A DNA stretch of 64,000 nt, from positions 160,001 to 224,000 of IMG/VR virus record IMGVR_UViG_3300017700_000931; one strand, 5' to 3'. Every line of letters begins with the position of its first letter. The stretch's first letter is position 1. Of the stretch, positions 4,495 through 54,563 are shown piece by piece. The stretch comes from a virus. Taxonomy: Duplodnaviria > Caudoviricetes. Both the position numbers and the translations under genes were made by a program. The notes under the pieces were generated by a model. It searched no databases, had not been told where the DNA came from, and was given only the letters and a program-made list of their open reading frames with translations.

Positions 4495-6333
4495 GTGATA
4501 GATTTGAATGACCTTAAAAGTCGGTCAGCAATAAATCTTCTAAATGAGTACAATGGGAAAAACCCATATTTACGAAAATTGAAGCTTGAATACTTGAATA
4601 ATAAGAATCTTAGATTAACTGAGAATCAAACAAGGTATATTGTAGACTTCCATGATAAAGAACCAGAATTAATCAATAAAGTGGTTAATATTACTCAATT
4701 TTTGGGTGAAGAGTTGAAAAAACAAAATGATTTAACCTTTACCCCAGAAAGGATATTAGTTGAATTTATGTTAGCTGATACTGAAAAAACATTTCATGTT
4801 TATGGTAAATTGAAAAGAAATCAGCCAAAATCAAAATCTTATTGGTTACCAAAAACACAAGTTCTAGATGACCCATATCATGAGGAAATAAATATTGATG
4901 TAGATTTCGATAAATGGACCAGCATTGATAAGCAAAAAAGAAAACCATTTGAACACCAAAAAAGTGGTGTTAAATTCTTACTATCTAAAAATGGTTGCAT
5001 ATTAGCAGATGATATGGGTCTAGGAAAGACTTATACAGCTATTATGGCCGCATTAGAAAGCAATGTGGAACGTATCCTTATAGTTTGTCCATCTGCGGTT
5101 AAAATCAACTGGGAGAGAGAAATTAATGATTTTGACGATAACACAACAATTGTTAATGGAAAAAAATGGAATAGAAGTAAATTCACTATCATAAATTATG
5201 ATATTTTAAAAAACTTCCATACCATTGGTGATGCAAAAACTGATGCTGACGGTCATATTATTGAGTTCAATAGGGAATTAGTTAATTCTAAATTCGATTT
5301 GGTGATTATTGATGAGGCACATTATTTAAAAAATCACAAAAGTATTCGTGGTGAAATCATGGTAGACTTATGTGTGAAACATAATGTCGAAAAGGTTTGG
5401 TTACTAACCGGAACCCCCATTGCTAATAGGCCAATGGATTTTTATAATTTATTAAAATTAATCAAAGCTCCAATTGCTGATAACTGGAAATTCTTTGCAC
5501 AAAGGTATTGTGATGGAAAAAGATTTTACAAAACAGTTAGGGGTAGAAAACGTCAAATATGGCTTACCGATGGTGCATCCAATCTAGAGGAATTATCAAT
5601 TAAAACTAGAAATATTATCCTAAGAAGGAAAAAAGAGGATGTTTTGGATATGCCGGATAAAACCGTCGGAACAATTTATCAAGAATTGGATAAAAAGGGA
5701 TTGAAAAAATATGAAGACCTCTGGGAAGAGTATTTGGAAAAACGTATTGAGGAAAAGAAAAGAGGAACACCGGATAAAGATTTGGTTGAATTAATTCTTT
5801 TAAGAAAATTTATTGCTCTAGAAGCAATACCATACACTATAGAGTTAGCTGAAAACGCTGTTGAGCAAGGTCAAAAGGTGATAATATTCACAAGCTTTAC
5901 TGATGAATTAAATGAATTAGCAAATCATTTTGGTACTAAGTGTGTTGTTCATAATGGACCTATGTCTCAAGTAGCGAAACAAAATAGTGTTGATTCATTT
6001 CAAAATAATCCGAACATACAATATTTTATTGGTAACATTAGGTCTGCTGGGGTTGGTATTACTTTAACTGCTGCAAACTATGTTATATTTAATTCATTTG
6101 ATTGGGTACCCGGAAACAATGAACAAGCTGAAGACCGTGCATACCGTATTGGTCAAAAGAATAATGTTACTGTGAAATACCAATTATTTAAAGATACCAT
6201 CAGTACAAAAATGTGGTGGACTCTAAATAAGAAAAAAGATATCATTTCAACAATCATCGGTGAGAAAGAAATGGATGAAGCTGAAATTGAAAGAAGAATA
6301 ATAGATGAATCAATTAAAATCGATGAAGACTAA
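4495..6333 (+). CDS. SNF2-family (SMARCAL1/HARP-like) helicase
   Basis: LADDMGLGKT (motif I), IIDEAHYLKN (DEAH), LLTGTPIANRP, AGVGITLTAA, QAEDRAYRIGQ; GTG start. Confidence 0.92.
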   Translation: MIDLNDLKSRSAINLLNEYNGKNPYLRKLKLEYLNNKNLRLTENQTRYIVDFHDKEPELINKVVNITQFLGEELKKQNDLTFTPERILVEFMLADTEKTFHVYGKLKRNQPKSKSYWLPKTQVLDDPYHEEINIDVDFDKWTSIDKQKRKPFEHQKSGVKFLLSKNGCILADDMGLGKTYTAIMAALESNVERILIVCPSAVKINWEREINDFDDNTTIVNGKKWNRSKFTIINYDILKNFHTIGDAKTDADGHIIEFNRELVNSKFDLVIIDEAHYLKNHKSIRGEIMVDLCVKHNVEKVWLLTGTPIANRPMDFYNLLKLIKAPIADNWKFFAQRYCDGKRFYKTVRGRKRQIWLTDGASNLEELSIKTRNIILRRKKEDVLDMPDKTVGTIYQELDKKGLKKYEDLWEEYLEKRIEEKKRGTPDKDLVELILLRKFIALEAIPYTIELAENAVEQGQKVIIFTSFTDELNELANHFGTKCVVHNGPMSQVAKQNSVDSFQNNPNIQYFIGNIRSAGVGITLTAANYVIFNSFDWVPGNNEQAEDRAYRIGQKNNVTVKYQLFKDTISTKMWWTLNKKKDIISTIIGEKEMDEAEIERRIIDESIKIDED

Positions 6334-6589
6334 AGTTTATACAATACCGAAATGTCCATACTGCTCTAAATTGAAGACCTTATTGGATGAAATGAACATA
6401 GAATATGAAACAATTGATGTTTCATTAGATGAACATGAAGAAGAATTTAAAAAATTGATGGAGATATCAGGAAGTGATTCTGTCCCAATGATTACTGTTG
6501 GAGTTAATCTATTAGCCCCAGATGTGAATTTTTCATCAATAGACCAAGCAGCTAAATTAATTAAGTACATTCTAGAAAACGAATCTTAA
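6323..6589 (+). CDS. Glutaredoxin
   Basis: CPYC active site and SVP cis-Pro motif; start moved to the second Met. Confidence 0.85.
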   Translation: MKTKVYTIPKCPYCSKLKTLLDEMNIEYETIDVSLDEHEEEFKKLMEISGSDSVPMITVGVNLLAPDVNFSSIDQAAKLIKYILENES

Positions 6590-6882
6590 ACAGCGTCTTC
6601 GTATCCGGTTGAATAATCATTCATTAGACTTTGCAGATGAGAAATGATTGTTGGTTCAGTTACCTCAAATGAACTACTAGTGTCACTTGGTCTACCTAAC
6701 ATTTCTTTAATGGCCTCTAATCGTTGTCTAATCTCAGGATTATCACAATATTGTATTGCCATTTCCATTTCTCGATAAGCATCAAATAAGTGATTGGCGG
6801 CTTTATTAATAATACCGTATGTCACTGTTTGCCTCTTATGAAGTTCAAGTTTTTCTTTTATCAATCTCTTAGTTTCCATCAT
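6586..6882 (-). CDS. Hypothetical protein
   Basis: 98-aa ORF filling the gap between the glutaredoxin and neck genes. Confidence 0.6.
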   Translation of the reverse strand: MMETKRLIKEKLELHKRQTVTYGIINKAANHLFDAYREMEMAIQYCDNPEIRQRLEAIKEMLGRPSDTSSSFEVTEPTIISHLQSLMNDYSTGYEDAV

Positions 6883-6884
6883 TA

Positions 6885-6896
6885 ATAAATATTTAT
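6885..6896. promoter_or_regulatory. Palindromic double TATTTAT site between divergent genes
   Basis: ATAAATATTTAT carries the motif on both strands; 17 nt upstream of ATG 6914. Confidence 0.5.
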
Positions 6897-6913
6897 AAAA
6901 AAAGGAAAGAACT

Positions 6914-8059
6914 ATGGGCGTAAATACTGAAGATAAAGATAAAATATTCAGACAGTTTAGACATTCAATGGGGTCACCCCACAGAATGGTTGAATTAGAT
7001 GATGACCAATTAAGTACGTTTCTTGAAATTGCAATTGAAGATTATGCTCAATATGTTCAAGAATGGTTGATTGAACATCAATGGCAATCATTATTAGGTC
7101 AAAATATTGATACAATTGATATGGCATTCGCAATGAGTGTTAGAAATTTCGATTTCATGACCCAATATACTTATGCTTATTCCAAACAAGTTGGATTACA
7201 AGCTAGGGGTCCTTGGGAACTTAAAAAAGATTACATTGATATTGAACTTGGTCGTCAGGTTTATCAAATTCCAGCTGGAAGAGAAGTGAATGAAGTTTTA
7301 TGGTTGACACCAGGTTCGGTAGACCATGCATTATATGCACATTACGGTGGTTTTGATGCTGGTTTTGGTGGTGGATATGCACAAATTGGTAGTGGTACAG
7401 GAATGGGAGCTCAAGGTGGTATGGGCGGAATGGGTGGTTATTACATTGCACCTGCATTCGATATTTTATTAACTGCTGCTGACATGAATTTAAAAAATAG
7501 AATGTTAAGAAGTGATTTAGTATATAAATTAACTGCCGGACCAGATGGAACTAGATTATTACATTTATTGAGTACTCCGGGTTCTAAATTAACATTTGGT
7601 AATGGTGGAGCCCATGGTGGTAGTGCAGTCGGTTTACAAGGCTGTAAAGTTTGGTATTTTTATTATGATACTAGTGGGAACACAAATGAATGTAGATTAG
7701 ATAACCCTGATATTATCAAATTGCCTAACGAAGTTCCATTATCTAAATTAGATTTTTCTGAATTTAATGAACCAACAAAAACATTAGTTAGACAATTATT
7801 TATGGCAAACGCTAAAATTGCGTTAGGTAGGACCAGAGGTAAATTTGGTGGTGTTGTTGGGCCACCAGAAGCTGAGAGAACAATGGATTATGAATCATTG
7901 TTGTCTGAAGGTAATGACGAAAAGAAAGCAGTGTTGGAAAGACTAGATGAGCGATTAGCTAGGTTAAGTACTGAGAAACAAATAGAAAGAGCTGCTAAAG
8001 AATCTGAAGATTTAAATAGACACTTAAAATTTAGACCATTAGGTTTTTATTTCAAATAA
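6914..8059 (+). CDS. Neck / head completion protein (T4 gp13-like)
   Basis: MGSP...VELDDDQL...EIAIEDY resembles the gp13 N-terminus LG.P...VE....QI; Gly-rich insert. Confidence 0.7.
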   Translation: MGVNTEDKDKIFRQFRHSMGSPHRMVELDDDQLSTFLEIAIEDYAQYVQEWLIEHQWQSLLGQNIDTIDMAFAMSVRNFDFMTQYTYAYSKQVGLQARGPWELKKDYIDIELGRQVYQIPAGREVNEVLWLTPGSVDHALYAHYGGFDAGFGGGYAQIGSGTGMGAQGGMGGMGGYYIAPAFDILLTAADMNLKNRMLRSDLVYKLTAGPDGTRLLHLLSTPGSKLTFGNGGAHGGSAVGLQGCKVWYFYYDTSGNTNECRLDNPDIIKLPNEVPLSKLDFSEFNEPTKTLVRQLFMANAKIALGRTRGKFGGVVGPPEAERTMDYESLLSEGNDEKKAVLERLDERLARLSTEKQIERAAKESEDLNRHLKFRPLGFYFK

Positions 8060-43881: not shown

Positions 43882-44622
43882 ATGGCTAGCAAAAGAGGAC
43901 GTAAAAGGAAAAACGATTTGTACTTTGGTCCAGATGAAGAGAAAGCCGTTGTTGAGTTTTTAGCATGTGATGATTCGATTGAAAGAAATAAAATTTATAA
44001 TGAATGGTTGAGAGCACCATTCGATAAAATGATAGAATCAATTATTAGAAGATACAAACTTTATAGAAAAGCATATTCATTTGAAGACCTACACAGTGAT
44101 ACACTTTCATTTTTAATAACCAAGGCTGATAAATTTGACCATACTCAGAATAACAGAGCTTATTCTTATTATGGTACTATCTGTAAAAACTATATTCTAA
44201 TGTTATTGATTAAAGATGACAAAGGAATAAAAACCAATGCTTCATTTGAGGATACCTTTGAAAGTATCCAACATCGAGAGGACTTAACATATTATTTGAC
44301 TGATACTGATTATGGGTTAACTGAATTCATACAAACAATTTCAGAAGAAATTAAAAGTGAGTTGGCTTGTATTGATGAACCCAAAAAGAAAATCACTGAA
44401 AACGAAAGGAAAGTCGGTGAGGCATTGATTGAAATTCTAGAAAATTATTCTGGGATATTTGAAAATATGGAAGGTGGGTCAAAATACAATAAAAATATTG
44501 TATTAGCCACTATCAGGGATTATACGAATCTAAGTACAAAGGATATTAGAGTAGCCATGCGTAGGTTCAAAAAACTTTATTATCTTATTAAAGATGATAA
44601 AACGGATGAGGGTTATTTGTAA
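43882..44622 (+). CDS. Phage RNA polymerase sigma factor (T4 gp55-like)
   Basis: EDL.SD...FL..K..KFD....RAYSYYGTICKN resembles sigma region 2 as in gp55 (NFDP...NPFAYFT.I). Confidence 0.6.
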   Translation: MASKRGRKRKNDLYFGPDEEKAVVEFLACDDSIERNKIYNEWLRAPFDKMIESIIRRYKLYRKAYSFEDLHSDTLSFLITKADKFDHTQNNRAYSYYGTICKNYILMLLIKDDKGIKTNASFEDTFESIQHREDLTYYLTDTDYGLTEFIQTISEEIKSELACIDEPKKKITENERKVGEALIEILENYSGIFENMEGGSKYNKNIVLATIRDYTNLSTKDIRVAMRRFKKLYYLIKDDKTDEGYL

Positions 44623-48136: not shown

Positions 48137-49552
48137 ATGGTAATACGCACATTTTTTGATAGAAACAATACTATTGTTTATAACGATTTAATCAATACTG
48201 GTAGAAACCCAGTTGCTGAACTATTTTATGGTGGTTCAGTTGGTGAAGAATCATATAGTAGATTTATATTTCATTTTGATGAAACTAGATTAAATGAGAT
48301 TCATAGTTGTGGTGGTTTTGGTGATTTAACTAATGTCAGACATACCCTTAGAATGACCAATACTGGAGCCTTTGACGCTGCTTTATTAGGTAAAACCACT
48401 TGTAGTGGTAAAGATAGAGCATCATCATTCGATTTAATAGTATTCAGGTTAGAACAACCTTGGGATGAGGGTAATGGTTATGACTATAATCACAATAATT
48501 TTTTAATCCAAGGTAATAGTGCCATAGTTATAAACTCACCATCTAATTGGGTTGAAGCCCAAACAAACGTATCTTGGTCCGGTGGGAATGGAACATATAG
48601 TGGTTCATCATCCGGCGTAACAATTGCGACACAACATTTTGAACAAGGTAATGAAAATCTTGAAATAGATATTACCGATTATGTTAATGGTATATTAACA
48701 GGTGATACTAATTATGGTTTGGGTATCGCATTCCCGTCATCATTCGAAGCCACCCCAACCGACAACTTAAAATATGTAGGATTTTTTACCAGACACACTC
48801 AAACATTTTATGAACCACATGTCGAAACAATTTACAATAATCCTATAATGGATGATAGGGCTAATTTTTATTTGGATAAAGTAAATAAATTGTATTTGTA
48901 TTCTAATGTTGGAGGTGTACCAACTTCATTGGATAATTTACCTACAGTAACAATTTTGGACCCATCTGGTGCAGTATTTTCAGCAATAACATCTGGTGTA
49001 ACACAAGTATCGTGCGGTGTTTATTCTGTTGAAGTATTCGTTCCAACGTATTCAGCTTATACCGATTGTATGCAATTTGAAGATATCTGGAGCAACATTT
49101 CTATTAATGGTATAAGTAGACCGGATATTGAGTTAGATTTTATAATTCAAGATTCATCTAAGTATTATAATATTGGTCAAAATATTGAATTACCAAAAAA
49201 ATATGGCTTTACTGTAACTGGTATCAAAAGAGATGAAAGAATTAAACGTGGAGATATTAGAAGAGTTAACGTGGTGGCCAGAATACCATACACAATAAAC
49301 CAAACTGAAGTAATCGATAGACTACAATATAGATTGTACGTTAAAGAGGGTAGAAATGAATATACTGTAATCGATTTTCAAGATGTTAATAGAGCTTTCA
49401 ATGGTAATTATTTTTTATTAGATACTGCTAGCTTGATACCAAATACTTATTATTTGGATGTTCAAGTAGAATCTAATTATGAAATTACCACAATAACAGA
49501 TGTCCTGAGTTTTGATATTGTTAGTCAATCAGAATTAAGGGATAGTCAATAA
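48137..49552 (+). CDS. Virion structural protein (DNRLRE/beta-sandwich-like, tentative)
   Basis: DRNNTI.Y....NTG.NP..EL, SRFIFHFD, W.EG.G, IDITDYV pattern. Confidence 0.5.
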   Translation: MVIRTFFDRNNTIVYNDLINTGRNPVAELFYGGSVGEESYSRFIFHFDETRLNEIHSCGGFGDLTNVRHTLRMTNTGAFDAALLGKTTCSGKDRASSFDLIVFRLEQPWDEGNGYDYNHNNFLIQGNSAIVINSPSNWVEAQTNVSWSGGNGTYSGSSSGVTIATQHFEQGNENLEIDITDYVNGILTGDTNYGLGIAFPSSFEATPTDNLKYVGFFTRHTQTFYEPHVETIYNNPIMDDRANFYLDKVNKLYLYSNVGGVPTSLDNLPTVTILDPSGAVFSAITSGVTQVSCGVYSVEVFVPTYSAYTDCMQFEDIWSNISINGISRPDIELDFIIQDSSKYYNIGQNIELPKKYGFTVTGIKRDERIKRGDIRRVNVVARIPYTINQTEVIDRLQYRLYVKEGRNEYTVIDFQDVNRAFNGNYFLLDTASLIPNTYYLDVQVESNYEITTITDVLSFDIVSQSELRDSQ

Positions 49553-49575
49553 CGATAAATGTAAATTAAAAAATC

Positions 49576-49683
49576 ATGGACGAAGAAAAAGAATGCACTT
49601 GCAAAGATTGTAACCCTAATGGACAATGTGAGTGCACTGGTGAATGTGAAGAAACATGCACTTGTGGATGTTGTAAAAAATAA
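49576..49683 (+). CDS. Metallothionein-like 35-aa peptide (not in the ORF track)
   Basis: MDEEKECTCKDCNPNGQCECTGECEETCTCGCCKK: 10 Cys in CxC/CxCxCC arrays, no aromatic residue; followed by a terminator. Confidence 0.65.
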   Translation: MDEEKECTCKDCNPNGQCECTGECEETCTCGCCKK

Positions 49684-49699
49684 ATTTAAGAAAATTATT

Positions 49700-49727
49700 A
49701 AAACCACTTGACTAAAGTGGTTTTTTT
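49700..49727 (+). terminator. Intrinsic terminator whose loop carries a -35 box
   Basis: aaaaccact-tgactaa-agtggttttttt. Confidence 0.75.
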
Positions 49728-49735
49728 ATTATACT
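49708..49735 (+). promoter_or_regulatory. Sigma70-type promoter
   Basis: TTGACT(49708-49713)-16 nt-TATACT(49730-49735). Confidence 0.55.
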
Positions 49736-49846: not shown

Positions 49847-50722
49847 ATGAAACAAGTAAAGCAATCAATGCCTACTGCTAACATCGCAATTAACAAAAGC
49901 AGACTTAAGGTATATCAAAACAATGGCGATGTTCCGACCTATTATTTACAAAAAGGTCAAGAGTTCCAAATCGAACTTTTCAATCCAACTAACAAAAAAA
50001 TCTTAGCTAAGATTTCATTAAACAATATGCTTATCACACAAGGTGGTTTAGTATTGAATCCGGGACAACGTGTGTTCTTGGACCGTTATATTGATGTAGC
50101 TAAGAAATTTAGATTTGATACTTATGAGGTATCAAATACTGCTGAAGTAAAAGAAGCGATTCGTGATAATGGTGATTTTAAAGTTCAATTCTTTAGAGAG
50201 GAAGAACCTAAACCATATTATGGTAATTTGCGCTCAATCCAAGATTATTGGCATAATGGTCCAATATACGGTGGAACTGGTGGTGGTTACAGTGGTTCCG
50301 GTGGTTATGTATTTAATTCACCATCAAACATGAATGGTTCAATTGGTTTAACGAGCTTAACAAGCCACAATTCAACTACTTTAAATGTTAGTAATGCATC
50401 TTATACAAGTGATGTAACATTAGATTCACTAAACTCAATGAATTCATTGAGTAGTGAATTGAAAAAAAGTAGTCCAGTAAGGTCTAAAAAATCCATTGAA
50501 ACTGGTAGAGTTGAAGCTGGGTCAGCTTCAGACCAAAAGCTTGAAACTGTCAATTATAATTTTGAAAGTTGGGCGTTCCATACCATAACATATAAAATGT
50601 TACCAGTATCACAAAAAGTTAATACAGTACAAGATATTCAAGTTAAAAAATATTGTACTGAATGTGGTGCTAAACAAAAACCGACAAATAAATTTTGCCC
50701 TAGCTGCGGAGCTAAGGTTTAA
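49847..50722 (+). CDS. Hypothetical protein with C-terminal double zinc ribbon
   Basis: CTECG...CPSCG at the C-terminus; Gly/Ser-rich linker. Confidence 0.7.
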   Translation: MKQVKQSMPTANIAINKSRLKVYQNNGDVPTYYLQKGQEFQIELFNPTNKKILAKISLNNMLITQGGLVLNPGQRVFLDRYIDVAKKFRFDTYEVSNTAEVKEAIRDNGDFKVQFFREEEPKPYYGNLRSIQDYWHNGPIYGGTGGGYSGSGGYVFNSPSNMNGSIGLTSLTSHNSTTLNVSNASYTSDVTLDSLNSMNSLSSELKKSSPVRSKKSIETGRVEAGSASDQKLETVNYNFESWAFHTITYKMLPVSQKVNTVQDIQVKKYCTECGAKQKPTNKFCPSCGAKV

Positions 50723-52763: not shown

Positions 52764-54563
52764 TTATCTCAATTCTGCAATGTTGAATGTTGGAATTCCA
52801 TCAACTCTAACATGTCCGTAGAACCTGTTATTTACCACTTTCTTAGCGTATCTAGTCATGATACCTTTTACTGGTGCGAAGTTGAATGGGTTATACATTG
52901 TAGGTGTAAGTTGCATTGGCACGTATGGTGCGTAGATGTAACCAGTGTCTAACAATGATTTTCCTTTATGTCCAATAATCATTGAGTTAGCTGGAGCATA
53001 AGGGTCACGATACACTTGGTATCTACCGCTTAATGAACCGATTCTCTCAATCCCCATGTTATATTGGTCTTGCTCTGGTGAAGCATCACTTACGTGGAAG
53101 TACTCAAGGTCATCCATAACAGCTGAGATTTCAGAAGAAACCACGATGAAGTTAGCACCACCTCTAAGAGTTGATTTATGGATTTGAGCAGAAACTTGGT
53201 TTACTTTAGTAATCAAAGTTTGGTTCCAATCCTTTTGAGTGTATGGGCTTGCAGCTGAAGAAGCTTTTCTCCATCCGTTATAATCCCATCTCAATTGCCA
53301 AGCAGCAGCTTTTCTCAAATCTCTCAAGATTTCTCTATCGATTTCAGCAGCAACTTGCTCAGAAAGCATAGCTGTTAATTCAGCCTCAGCATCAATGTTG
53401 TGGAATGCACTAACATCTTGCGCTAATTCTGGTGACCAAGTAGCTCTAAGTTTTCTTTCTTCAACAGAAACAACAACTTCATCAAGTCTAAATGAAACTT
53501 CACCAAGTTCTGTTTCAAGCTCAAGAGATGCATATTCTGCCCAAGATACGATAAAATCAGCACTTGTATAAGCAGTTAAGAATGCTGTAGAAGCAGTAGC
53601 ACCGATGTAACCATCGTATGTTTCAGTTCCGTTCAATCCAACTGGGTGAGACAAATCAGCTTCCAAATAAATGTTACCTAATGAGTCACAGATATCATCG
53701 TATTCTACGATACCTTTACCATATTTTTGTGTTACCAATCTGAAAGGTATTTCAGCGTTTGCAGCGATGATAGTATTACCATCTTGGTCAAGGAATGCAG
53801 TAGCACCGTTAACAATCTTAAGTGAAGCCAAGAATGATTCAGTGTCCATGTTATGACCATCCGGTCCTGTTAACCTACCTTTGTCTGTACCAGCTCCACC
53901 AGTGAAACCAGATACTCTCAACATAATGTTTCTCAATGAACCATCAGTTGCTAAAGCAGAGTTAGTTGCGTTTGTTTGGTCAGTAAATGTACCATTAGTT
54001 CCTAATGTTACGATTTTTACTGTACCAGCAACGATTGTGATTTCACCTTTAGATGCATCGAACAAACCGTCATTGTAGTAAATATCATAAAGGTTTTTAG
54101 CCTCAAATACTGTCAAGTTACATCCAACACCTTGTACACAATCTGGCAATTGGTCAGCCATTGATGTGTGTGCAGAATATTGAGCACTTACATGTGGGTT
54201 ACCAGCAGTTCCAGAAGCGTTAACTCTAGATGATGTTTGTGGTACGAAGAAGAACAATTTACCAATTGGCATGTTCATAGCTTGTACTGATACGATATCG
54301 TTCGCCAATAATTTAGAGAATACTCTCCTTACGATTGGGAATACTACAGTTTCGAATGACCCTGAAGAGTCAGCTGTAGTTGATTCGTTTAATAAATGAG
54401 AAGCCTCATTCTCATATAACTGAGCGATGTTCTCTTTTACGTGGCCTTTAAGACCTTCTAGAAATCCTAAACCTTCCCATTTTGCTTGGGTTTGTCTACG
54501 AACTTCTTTCATGTGGTTAAGTCCGATATTTCCGACTACCCCAGAGGTTAATAAATGTGACAT
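52764..54563 (-). CDS. gp23: Major capsid protein (T4 gp23-like)
   Basis: VSVQAM..P.G.LF, RKLRATWSPELAQD..A.H.IDAEAEL...LSE...AEIDREI, YAPYVP. Confidence 0.95.
   Translation of the reverse strand: MSHLLTSGVVGNIGLNHMKEVRRQTQAKWEGLGFLEGLKGHVKENIAQLYENEASHLLNESTTADSSGSFETVVFPIVRRVFSKLLANDIVSVQAMNMPIGKLFFFVPQTSSRVNASGTAGNPHVSAQYSAHTSMADQLPDCVQGVGCNLTVFEAKNLYDIYYNDGLFDASKGEITIVAGTVKIVTLGTNGTFTDQTNATNSALATDGSLRNIMLRVSGFTGGAGTDKGRLTGPDGHNMDTESFLASLKIVNGATAFLDQDGNTIIAANAEIPFRLVTQKYGKGIVEYDDICDSLGNIYLEADLSHPVGLNGTETYDGYIGATASTAFLTAYTSADFIVSWAEYASLELETELGEVSFRLDEVVVSVEERKLRATWSPELAQDVSAFHNIDAEAELTAMLSEQVAAEIDREILRDLRKAAAWQLRWDYNGWRKASSAASPYTQKDWNQTLITKVNQVSAQIHKSTLRGGANFIVVSSEISAVMDDLEYFHVSDASPEQDQYNMGIERIGSLSGRYQVYRDPYAPANSMIIGHKGKSLLDTGYIYAPYVPMQLTPTMYNPFNFAPVKGIMTRYAKKVVNNRFYGHVRVDGIPTFNIAELR

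What the first reader, a model, noticed from the sequence alone, without database searches (positions are those of the whole stretch)
49576..49683. Metallothionein-like micro-protein hidden below the ORF cut-off
Seen: 35 aa with 10 Cys (29%) arranged CxCxxC...CxC...C...CxCxCC, rich in Glu/Lys/Thr/Gly, no aromatic residue or His. It ends a late-type operon and is followed 17 nt later by a terminator. Known: this composition is the hallmark of metallothioneins, which are rarely reported in phages. Inference: it buffers or delivers Zn/Cu/Fe, for example for the HxH spike, the Cys-rich virion protein or the neighbouring zinc-ribbon protein, or it counters host metal intoxication.
Basis: partly seen in the sequence, partly recalled or inferred. 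Interest (0 to 1): 0.75.

Follow-up and report, generated by a model that had tools for sequence, protein, structure and literature searches.

The report
Metallothionein-like micro-gene in jumbo phage
A real, conserved 35-codon gene at the end of a tail-gene operon of a 362-kb phage encodes a peptide that is nearly one-third cysteine; it probably folds around a few metal ions, but it matches no described metallothionein family and metal binding is untested.

Summary
Window 49576..49683 (+) is an ATG-to-TAA frame of 35 codons with 10 Cys and no aromatic residue or His. An intrinsic terminator follows 16 nt later.

It is a real gene. I found 13 distinct peptides of 21-35 aa on about 20 phage or metagenome contigs. 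They share the core CxCxxCxCxxxCxxxCxCxCCKK. Nearly all lie just after the homologue of the upstream 471-aa gene. dN/dS is about 0.1-0.3, and Cys codons swap TGT and TGC while Cys is kept.

The gene is patchy among close relatives, so it is a dispensable accessory gene and not a fixed partner of the spike, the 471-aa protein or the zinc-ribbon gene.

It meets the compositional definition of a metallothionein but matches no Pfam metallothionein model, no NCBIfam model and no solved structure. Metal binding could not be tested here.

RiPP-precursor and Cys-sensing leader-peptide readings fit poorly.

The phage is a distant T4-like jumbo phage, probably of a Bacteroidota host.

This scan has already noted metallothionein-like micro-genes on other DNA (marine archaea, SAR202, SAR86, ocean phages). 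None of them shares sequence words with this family.

Verdict: new sequence family of a known kind, function inferred only.

The parts
49576..49683 (+). Micro-gene: 35 codons plus TAA, encoding a 10-Cys peptide with no hydrophobic core
   Evidence: Searches give the sequence. Purifying selection is shown.
49553..49575 (+). 23-nt A-rich spacer between the stop of the 471-aa gene and the ATG. It has no Shine-Dalgarno motif and matches the genome's own start context.
   Evidence: 14 of 252 long genes have an SD-like 4-mer, against 17 in random windows. A is enriched at -13..-3, and the micro-gene leader is AAATTAAAAAATC.
49700..49727 (+). Intrinsic terminator: stem 49700-49709/49715-49724, loop GACTA, T-run to 49727
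   Evidence: The same hairpin type follows the orthologues in L002, L004 and L091.
49708..49735 (+). Promoter-like site (TTGACT, 16 nt, TATACT) whose first hexamer sits in the terminator loop. It probably serves the next gene (49847..50722).
   Evidence: CTTGACT in the loop and a TATAnT after the T-run recur in L002, L004 and L091. Function not tested.
48137..49552 (+). Upstream 471-aa gene, the syntenic anchor. It is an all-beta multi-domain protein, presumably a virion (tail or baseplate) component.
   Evidence: One search found 26 related loci. The AF2 model has pLDDT 73.7 and gives only generic Ig/FN3-type sandwich matches.

Best explanation
The frame is a real, translated accessory gene of a distant T4-like jumbo phage. 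It is transcribed as the last cistron of a + strand operon of virion-type genes. Its product is a cytoplasmic peptide with no hydrophobic core, no signal peptide and no leader. Nine conserved cysteines, spaced CxCxxCxCxxxCxxxCxCxCC and followed by KK, can give it a defined structure only by wrapping around metal ions. The most likely form is one small metal-thiolate cluster of the kind seen in single-domain metallothioneins: about three Zn/Cd or several Cu(I). This window's copy carries a tenth Cys on a six-residue insertion and an acidic N-terminal extension. The most likely role is to buffer, store or sequester Zn or Cu in the infected cell while virion genes are expressed. That benefit would depend on the niche, which fits the gene being repeatedly gained or lost. 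Shown here: coding status, conservation, selection, synteny, patchy distribution, and the absence of homology to known families. Inferred: metal binding, stoichiometry and the physiological role.
For: (1) 13 distinct peptides of 21-35 aa on about 20 contigs keep the Cys spacing and the C-terminal CCKK.
(2) Selection acts on the protein. NG86 dN/dS is about 0.1-0.3 with synonymous sites near saturation. L041 and L081 differ by 5 synonymous and 0 non-synonymous changes. 8 of 9 Cys columns use both TGT and TGC.
(3) It is unique in the genome for Cys density.
(4) Its start context matches the genome's SD-less, A-rich leaders.
(5) The shortest members (21-24 aa) begin with Met-Cys, so there is no room for a signal or leader peptide.
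(6) The composition meets the metallothionein class criteria (class description in PMC10612145).
(7) The nearest named cluster by language-model features is Metallothio_5, at score 0.82. This is a lead only.
(8) The AF2 model shows almost no regular secondary structure, as expected for a metal-dependent fold.
(9) The patchy distribution on the neighbour-gene tree fits an auxiliary, condition-dependent gene.
Against: No metallothionein HMM, NCBIfam model or PDB sequence matches, even at permissive thresholds. A profile search of 1.8 billion proteins returned only the family itself. No metal transporter, metal sensor or other metal-homeostasis gene was seen beside it in any locus. Two complete relatives (353 kb and 288 kb) gave no family member by two motif patterns, so the phage type does without it. 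No copy with the CxCxCCKK motif was found in 401 sampled Flavobacteriaceae genomes, so there is no evident host source. There is no expression or metal-binding data.
Confidence: 0.55

Rival explanations
1. A small metal-stabilised peptide that acts on another protein and not on the metal pool. It could be an inhibitor or decoy against a host factor or defence system, as many small accessory phage proteins at variable hot-spots are. It could also be a non-essential virion or assembly accessory of the tail module.
For: In 11 of 12 viral contigs it sits at the end of the tail/baseplate operon, directly after the 471-aa gene or one small gene further on. This slot is a variable hot-spot that also holds a 90-aa gene, a 127-aa gene, a GalE-like gene and, in L006, two zinc-ribbon micro-proteins. 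The distribution is patchy, as for anti-defence or host-takeover genes.
Against: The peptide has no hydrophobic residues with which to form an interface. Relatives with a 60-74% identical 471-aa protein lack it, so it is not needed for that protein. In L121 it lies in a different, non-structural context.
Confidence: 0.22
2. A cysteine-sensing regulatory short ORF. Ribosomes pausing on Cys codons when Cys-tRNA is scarce would alter termination at the hairpin 16 nt downstream or translation of the next gene. This resembles classical leader peptides and the mycobacterial polycysteine 'Cys ribulon'.
For: The architecture in this window is a short Cys-dense ORF followed closely by a terminator. A precedent for polycysteine attenuator sORFs exists (bioRxiv 10.1101/834739).
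Against: It is the last cistron, not the first. The terminator folds on its own, and no competing antiterminator appears in the MFE or centroid fold. In L003, L034, L060, L100 and L293 no terminator follows; a GalE-like gene starts 6-8 nt later instead. The downstream genes vary and are not Cys-metabolism genes. Only one CC pair is present, not a run. The Cys spacing, Gly, the acidic positions and the terminal KK are conserved, which a codon sensor does not need.
Confidence: 0.05
3. A precursor of a post-translationally modified peptide (RiPP), or a secreted disulfide-knotted peptide.
For: It is Cys- and Thr-rich and very small.
Against: The short members have no leader or signal sequence. Thr positions are not conserved. 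No conserved maturase lies beside it in any locus. The genome has no MNIO (PF05114) or YcaO (PF02624) gene. Its single radical-SAM gene is RlmN/Cfr-like and lies 132 kb away.
Confidence: 0.04
4. Not a gene: a chance open frame or a nucleic-acid element.
For: The frame is short and has no SD. A codon-aligned antisense frame is also open.
Against: The frame is kept open in about 20 contigs, and the changes are concentrated at third codon positions of the + frame. These same changes would be Thr/Ala replacements in the antisense frame. No gene in this genome uses an SD.
Confidence: 0.03

Closest known systems
Single-domain metallothioneins: the nine-Cys beta-domain of animal MTs and the 25-26-aa fungal copper-thioneins (from my own knowledge of the class, not tested here)
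   Same: They share size (about 20-35 aa per domain) and 7-10 Cys in CxC, CxxC and CC motifs. They share the filler residues Gly/Asn/Thr/Lys/Asp/Glu, the absence of aromatics and His, and the lack of a hydrophobic core. A basic C-terminal end after the last Cys is also common.
   Different: No detectable sequence homology. The gene is phage-borne and sits in a virion-gene operon. Metal binding is unmeasured.
Bacterial metallothioneins SmtA/BmtA (Pfam PF02069 Metallothio_Pro)
   Same: Small prokaryotic Cys-rich metal-binding proteins.
   Different: From my own knowledge, SmtA-type proteins are about 55 aa, use His as well as Cys, and have a zinc-finger-like fold with aromatic residues. A six-frame search of the whole genome with PF02069 gave no match at E<=10.
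Dipteran metallothioneins (Pfam PF02067 Metallothio_5)
   Same: Nearest named cluster in the ESM Atlas feature search, at score 0.82 with 169 of 256 shared features.
   Different: A score below 0.9 is a lead only. The HMM finds nothing in the genome.
Mycobacterial polycysteine leaderless sORFs, the 'Cys ribulon' (bioRxiv 10.1101/834739)
   Same: Unannotated, very short, Cys-dense ORFs inside operons.
   Different: Those ORFs are the first cistron of leaderless transcripts, rely on consecutive Cys codons and control Cys-metabolism genes. This one is a last or internal cistron with a fixed CxC spacing, conserved non-Cys residues and unrelated downstream genes.
Unnamed 38-42-aa Cys-rich micro-ORFs of Acidobacteriota MAGs (L210, L213, L253)
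   Same: They end in the same CxCxCCKK, have 13-15 Cys in CxC/CC motifs, and match no Pfam or NCBIfam family.
   Different: They have high GC, a strong AAGGAG ribosome-binding site, a longer peptide and a KKCC start. Homology versus convergence cannot be decided on such short, biased sequences.

Membership tests
Metallothionein (class defined by properties, polyphyletic) | Low molecular mass (below about 10 kDa) | tested here: met
   35 aa here, 21-30 aa in relatives.
Metallothionein (class defined by properties, polyphyletic) | High Cys content (roughly 15-35%) in CxC, CxxC and CC motifs | tested here: met
   29% here, up to 43% in the 21-aa member. The motifs CxC, CxxC and CC are all present and conserved.
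Metallothionein (class defined by properties, polyphyletic) | Aromatic residues and His absent or scarce | tested here: met
   None in this window's peptide. Among the 13 distinct peptides only L002 has one Trp.
Metallothionein (class defined by properties, polyphyletic) | High metal content bound in metal-thiolate clusters | not testable with these tools
   This needs ESI-MS, UV/CD or 113Cd-NMR on the peptide.
Described metallothionein sequence families (Pfam PF00131, PF02067, PF02069, and all other Pfam-A models) | Match to the family HMM | tested here: not met
   No hit at E<=10 for any of 8 members against Pfam-A. No six-frame hit in the genome for the three models. NCBIfam gave none. The PDB profile search gave only a defensin, at E = 0.66.
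RiPP precursor peptide | Leader or follower peptide plus a co-located maturase | tested here: not met
   The short members start Met-Cys. There is no conserved neighbouring enzyme. The genome has no MNIO or YcaO gene, and its only radical-SAM gene is RlmN/Cfr-like and 132 kb away.
Amino-acid-sensing leader peptide or attenuator | Position upstream of the regulated genes, with mutually exclusive terminator and antiterminator (or RBS-sequestering) structures | tested here: not met
   It is the last cistron. No alternative pairing with the terminator arm appears. The terminator is absent in at least 5 orthologous loci.

The most novel reading that the evidence does not exclude
These 21-35-aa nine-Cys peptides are a phage-specific metallothionein family, the smallest known. 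Large T4-like phages of Bacteroidota would carry it as a mobile auxiliary gene to take control of Zn or Cu availability in the infected cell. They could supply their own many zinc proteins, or strip or withhold metal from host enzymes or defences. The duplicated copies that flank a two-gene cassette in L293 hint that the gene also serves as a recombination anchor for swapping cassettes.
Probability: 0.3. Interest if true: 0.7.

Novelty: new variant of a known kind. Interest (0 to 1): 0.55.

Why it matters
Genes of 21-35 codons are mostly invisible to annotation. The one database protein of this family exists only because a gene caller read its TGA stop as Trp. If the peptide binds metals, it would be a new and very small metallothionein family. 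It would also be a clear case of a phage carrying its own metal buffer, which makes phage control of trace metals in infected cells testable with a peptide that can simply be synthesised. If it does not bind metals, a nine-Cys peptide under strong purifying selection still needs an explanation.

Tried and rejected
Searches that found no homologue:
- tblastn of the peptide against 50,697 phage records: no match; the low-complexity filter is probably the cause.
- The search for related loci with the peptide alignment: 146 pattern hits, none confirmed by tblastn because the query is too short. Degenerate DNA patterns were used instead.
- Profile search of 1.8 billion representatives: only the family's own TGA-readthrough product.

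Structure of the micro-protein (AF2, pLDDT 69.5, pTM 0.29):
- No Foldseek PDB match and no VIA-align match with Z>=2. This is uninformative for a metal-dependent fold.

The 471-aa neighbour:
- No PHROG or PDB sequence match, and only a weak CBM96 hit. Fold search gave only generic beta-sandwich matches.

- Complex prediction (micro-protein with the 471-aa protein).
- The look-up of sequencing runs, so there is no expression evidence.

Other checks:
- 'AATAACA' occurs 22-30 nt upstream of every copy, but it is not enriched in the window (33 found, 35 expected). I dropped it as a promoter motif.
- Flavobacteriaceae genomes (401 sampled): 21 pattern hits against 8 controls, all out-of-frame chance matches.
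- Gene neighbourhoods of the acidobacterial look-alikes (DUF6152, FecR, GrpE and others) gave no clear metal link.

Full report
OBSERVATION

Window 49576..49683 (+) is an ATG-to-TAA frame of 35 codons. The peptide has 10 Cys, at positions 7, 9, 12, 18, 20, 24, 28, 30, 32 and 33. The rest is 9 acidic residues, 4 Lys, 4 Thr, 3 Gly, 2 Asn, 1 Pro and 1 Gln. There is no aromatic residue, no His, and no aliphatic residue after Met1.

The stop codon is followed after 16 nt by a 10-bp hairpin (49700..49724) and a run of T. On its own the hairpin folds at -12.1 kcal/mol, z = -4.7 against shuffles. In the whole 362,532-bp genome this is the only ORF with at least 6 Cys and at least 20% Cys.

THE GENOME

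The window is bases 160001-224000 of a virus record with direct terminal repeats, estimated 100% complete. Several features place it among distant T4-like phages:
- The 599-aa protein at 52764..54563 (-) is a gp23-type major head protein (phrog_138, E = 3e-67).
- Portal and large terminase genes follow.
- The nearest cultured phages by head protein, at 38-43% identity, infect Flavobacterium, Microcystis and Rhodothermus.

The host is probably a Bacteroidota member. The genome does not use Shine-Dalgarno sites: 14 of 252 long genes have an SD-like 4-mer, against 17 in random windows. Instead it has A-rich leaders from -13 to -3. The most enriched upstream 7-mers, ATCTTTG, ATATTTG and TATCTTT, spell the Bacteroidota -7 promoter box TAnnTTTG (the box is from my own knowledge). 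The micro-gene's leader, AAATTAAAAAATC before the ATG, fits this context.

IS IT A GENE?

Yes. The upstream 471-aa gene has many relatives in IMG/VR. Directly downstream of that homologue, L002, L003 and L004 carry Cys-rich frames of 24-26 codons.

Degenerate DNA patterns for the conserved C-terminus found more copies:
- Viral contigs: L034, L041, L060, L081, L091, L100, L121 and L137.
- Metagenome contigs: L280, L285, L293, L309 and others.

In all there are 13 distinct peptides of 21-35 aa on about 20 distinct contigs. They share the core CxCxxCxCxxxCxxxCxCxCCKK (alignments A2 and A4). This window's copy is the longest. It adds an acidic N-terminal extension and a six-residue insertion that carries the tenth Cys.

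Selection acts on the peptide:
- Pairwise Nei-Gojobori dN/dS is about 0.1-0.3, with synonymous sites near saturation.
- L041 and L081 encode the same peptide through 5 synonymous differences; L034 and L100 do so through 1.
- 8 of the 9 core Cys columns use both TGT and TGC.

The codon-aligned antisense frame is open only because the sense peptide lacks Leu and Ser codons whose complements are stops. In that antisense frame the TGT/TGC swaps would be Thr/Ala replacements, so it is not the selected frame.

CONTEXT AND DISTRIBUTION

In every contig of the clade the micro-gene lies at the end of the same + strand module: sigma-like gene, 129-, 480-, 154- and 62-aa genes, the 316-aa spike-like gene, then the 471-aa gene. 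It sits either directly after the 471-aa gene or after one inserted small gene of 90 aa (L003) or 127 aa (L293).

What follows the micro-gene varies:
- Terminator plus zinc-ribbon gene: this window, L002, L004 and L091.
- A GalE-like epimerase starting 6-8 nt after the stop: L003, L034, L060, L100 and L293.
- The convergent head module.

L293 has two paralogous copies that flank a GalE-like gene and a 252-aa gene. L121 is a 197-kb contig of a more distant relative, with 36-59% identity to other G000 proteins. It carries a 30-aa member in an unrelated context.

On a maximum-likelihood tree of the 471-aa protein the micro-gene is scattered. The tree needs 6 gains or losses, at least 3 of them forced by well-supported branches, and the gene is no more clustered than shuffled labels (156 of 500 shuffles scored as low). 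The window's two nearest relatives, L001 and L016, lack it. Two complete relatives of 353 and 288 kb show no member by two motif patterns.

The gene is therefore a dispensable accessory gene at a variable hot-spot. It is not a fixed partner of the spike, the 471-aa protein or the zinc-ribbon protein.

WHAT THE PEPTIDE IS LIKE

It matches nothing by sequence:
- No Pfam-A family at E<=10 for any of 8 members.
- No six-frame match in the genome to PF00131, PF02067 or PF02069.
- No NCBIfam model.
- No PDB sequence except a defensin at E = 0.66.
- Only the family's own member in a profile search of 1.8 billion representatives. That member is a 34-aa product created by reading TGA as Trp.

The ESM Atlas feature search puts a Metallothio_5 cluster as the nearest named family at 0.82, which is a lead only. 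AlphaFold2 with the family alignment gives a low-confidence model (pLDDT 69.5, pTM 0.29) with one short hairpin and otherwise no regular structure. Neither Foldseek nor VIA-align finds a match. This is what one expects of a peptide that cannot fold without ligands.

By composition it meets every sequence-level criterion of the metallothionein class: small, about 30-40% Cys in CxC, CxxC and CC motifs, and no aromatics or His. The class is described in PMC10612145. The decisive criterion, metal-thiolate clusters, cannot be tested here.

MECHANISM PROPOSED

The short members begin Met-Cys. They leave no room for a signal peptide or RiPP leader, so the product is cytoplasmic and its thiols are reduced. 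Nine fixed Cys in 23 residues with no hydrophobic core most plausibly enclose one small metal-thiolate cluster. By analogy with nine-Cys metallothionein domains, which I know from the literature and did not test, this would hold about three divalent ions or several Cu(I).

The gene is co-transcribed with virion genes, so the peptide would be made in bulk late in infection. The likely benefit is buffering or sequestering Zn or Cu in the infected cell. That advantage would depend on the habitat, which fits the repeated gain and loss. I put 0.55 on this reading. Coding status and selection are shown; binding and role are inferred.

RIVALS

(a) A metal-stabilised mini-protein that acts on another protein, either as an anti-host or anti-defence factor or as a non-essential virion accessory (0.22). 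Its place at a variable hot-spot of the tail operon favours this. The absence of any hydrophobic surface, and its absence from relatives with a nearly identical 471-aa protein, count against it.

(b) A cysteine-sensing leader peptide like the mycobacterial polycysteine sORFs (bioRxiv 10.1101/834739) (0.05). Against this:
- It is a last cistron.
- No antiterminator competes with the hairpin.
- At least five orthologues have no terminator.
- The downstream genes are unrelated to Cys metabolism.
- The spacing and the non-Cys residues are conserved.

(c) A RiPP precursor or secreted knotted peptide (0.04). There is no leader and no conserved neighbouring enzyme. The genome has no MNIO or YcaO gene, and its only radical-SAM gene is RlmN/Cfr-like and 132 kb away.

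(d) Not a gene (0.03). The comparative data contradict this.

COMPARISON WITH WHAT IS KNOWN

Two papers mention metallothionein genes annotated by homology on viral contigs or transferred by temperate phages (PMC13317609; PMC12917443). I found no characterised phage metallothionein.

Earlier notes of this scan describe metallothionein-like micro-genes in marine archaea, SAR202, SAR86 and ocean phages. None of them shares sequence words with this family. The theme has therefore been seen before on other DNA, but this sequence family has not.

Acidobacteriota MAGs carry SD-preceded 38-42-aa frames with 13-15 Cys and the same CxCxCCKK ending. Whether they are homologous or convergent cannot be decided.

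No look-alike was found in the 401 sampled Flavobacteriaceae genomes.

VERDICT

This is a new, phage-borne sequence family of metallothionein-like micro-proteins, that is, a new variant of a known kind. The function is inferred from composition only. Interest 0.55.

Noticed in passing
window 49700-49735; also L002, L004 and L091 just after their micro-genes: The terminator loop contains CTTGACT, and a TATAnT box follows the T-run at sigma-70-like spacing. One compact element may therefore end the tail operon and start the next transcript. The arrangement is conserved in four loci.
   Followed up: partly
L293:5900-7960: Two paralogous micro-genes on one contig flank a GalE-like gene (6019..7017) and a 252-aa gene (7019..7777). 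This looks as if cassettes are exchanged by recombination between copies.
   Followed up: partly
L006:5800-6110: At the same hot-spot after the 471-aa gene, this relative has two small CxxC...CxxC zinc-ribbon-type frames (about 40 and 60 aa) in place of the Cys-rich micro-gene.
   Followed up: no
G000:C1:264578-264778 (-), outside the window: A 66-aa frame with 13 Cys and several His, starting MNHCEDCN. It is probably a zinc-finger-type small protein and is unlike the micro-gene.
   Followed up: no
L114 (G000:C1:340024-343527), outside the window: The phage encodes a translation initiation factor IF-3 homologue (TIGR00168, E = 9e-48). Two genes away lies an RlmN/Cfr-like radical-SAM RNA methyltransferase.
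   Followed up: no
L210:591-707 (-), L213:7580-7693 (+), L253:4737-4862 (-): Acidobacteriota MAGs carry 38-42-aa frames with 13-15 Cys, preceded by AAGGAG and ending in CxCxCCKK. None matches a Pfam or NCBIfam family. In L253 the neighbours are DUF6152 and FecR genes.
   Followed up: partly
P0001; L388:94-198, L389:210-314: The only database protein of this family is a 34-aa product made by reading the TGA stop as Trp, which also runs into the next gene. It is an annotation artefact from a wrong genetic code.
   Followed up: yes
whole genome G000 (upstream regions of 406 long ORFs): Upstream 7-mers ATCTTTG, ATATTTG and TATCTTT are enriched 3.5- to 6-fold and Shine-Dalgarno motifs are absent. 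Together with the head-protein relatives, this points to a Bacteroidota host.
   Followed up: partly
window 43882-44622 (+): A 246-aa protein has a weak Sigma-70 region 2 match (E = 8e-5, below the Pfam cut-off). It heads the conserved module that ends with the micro-gene and may be the phage's own late sigma factor.
   Followed up: no
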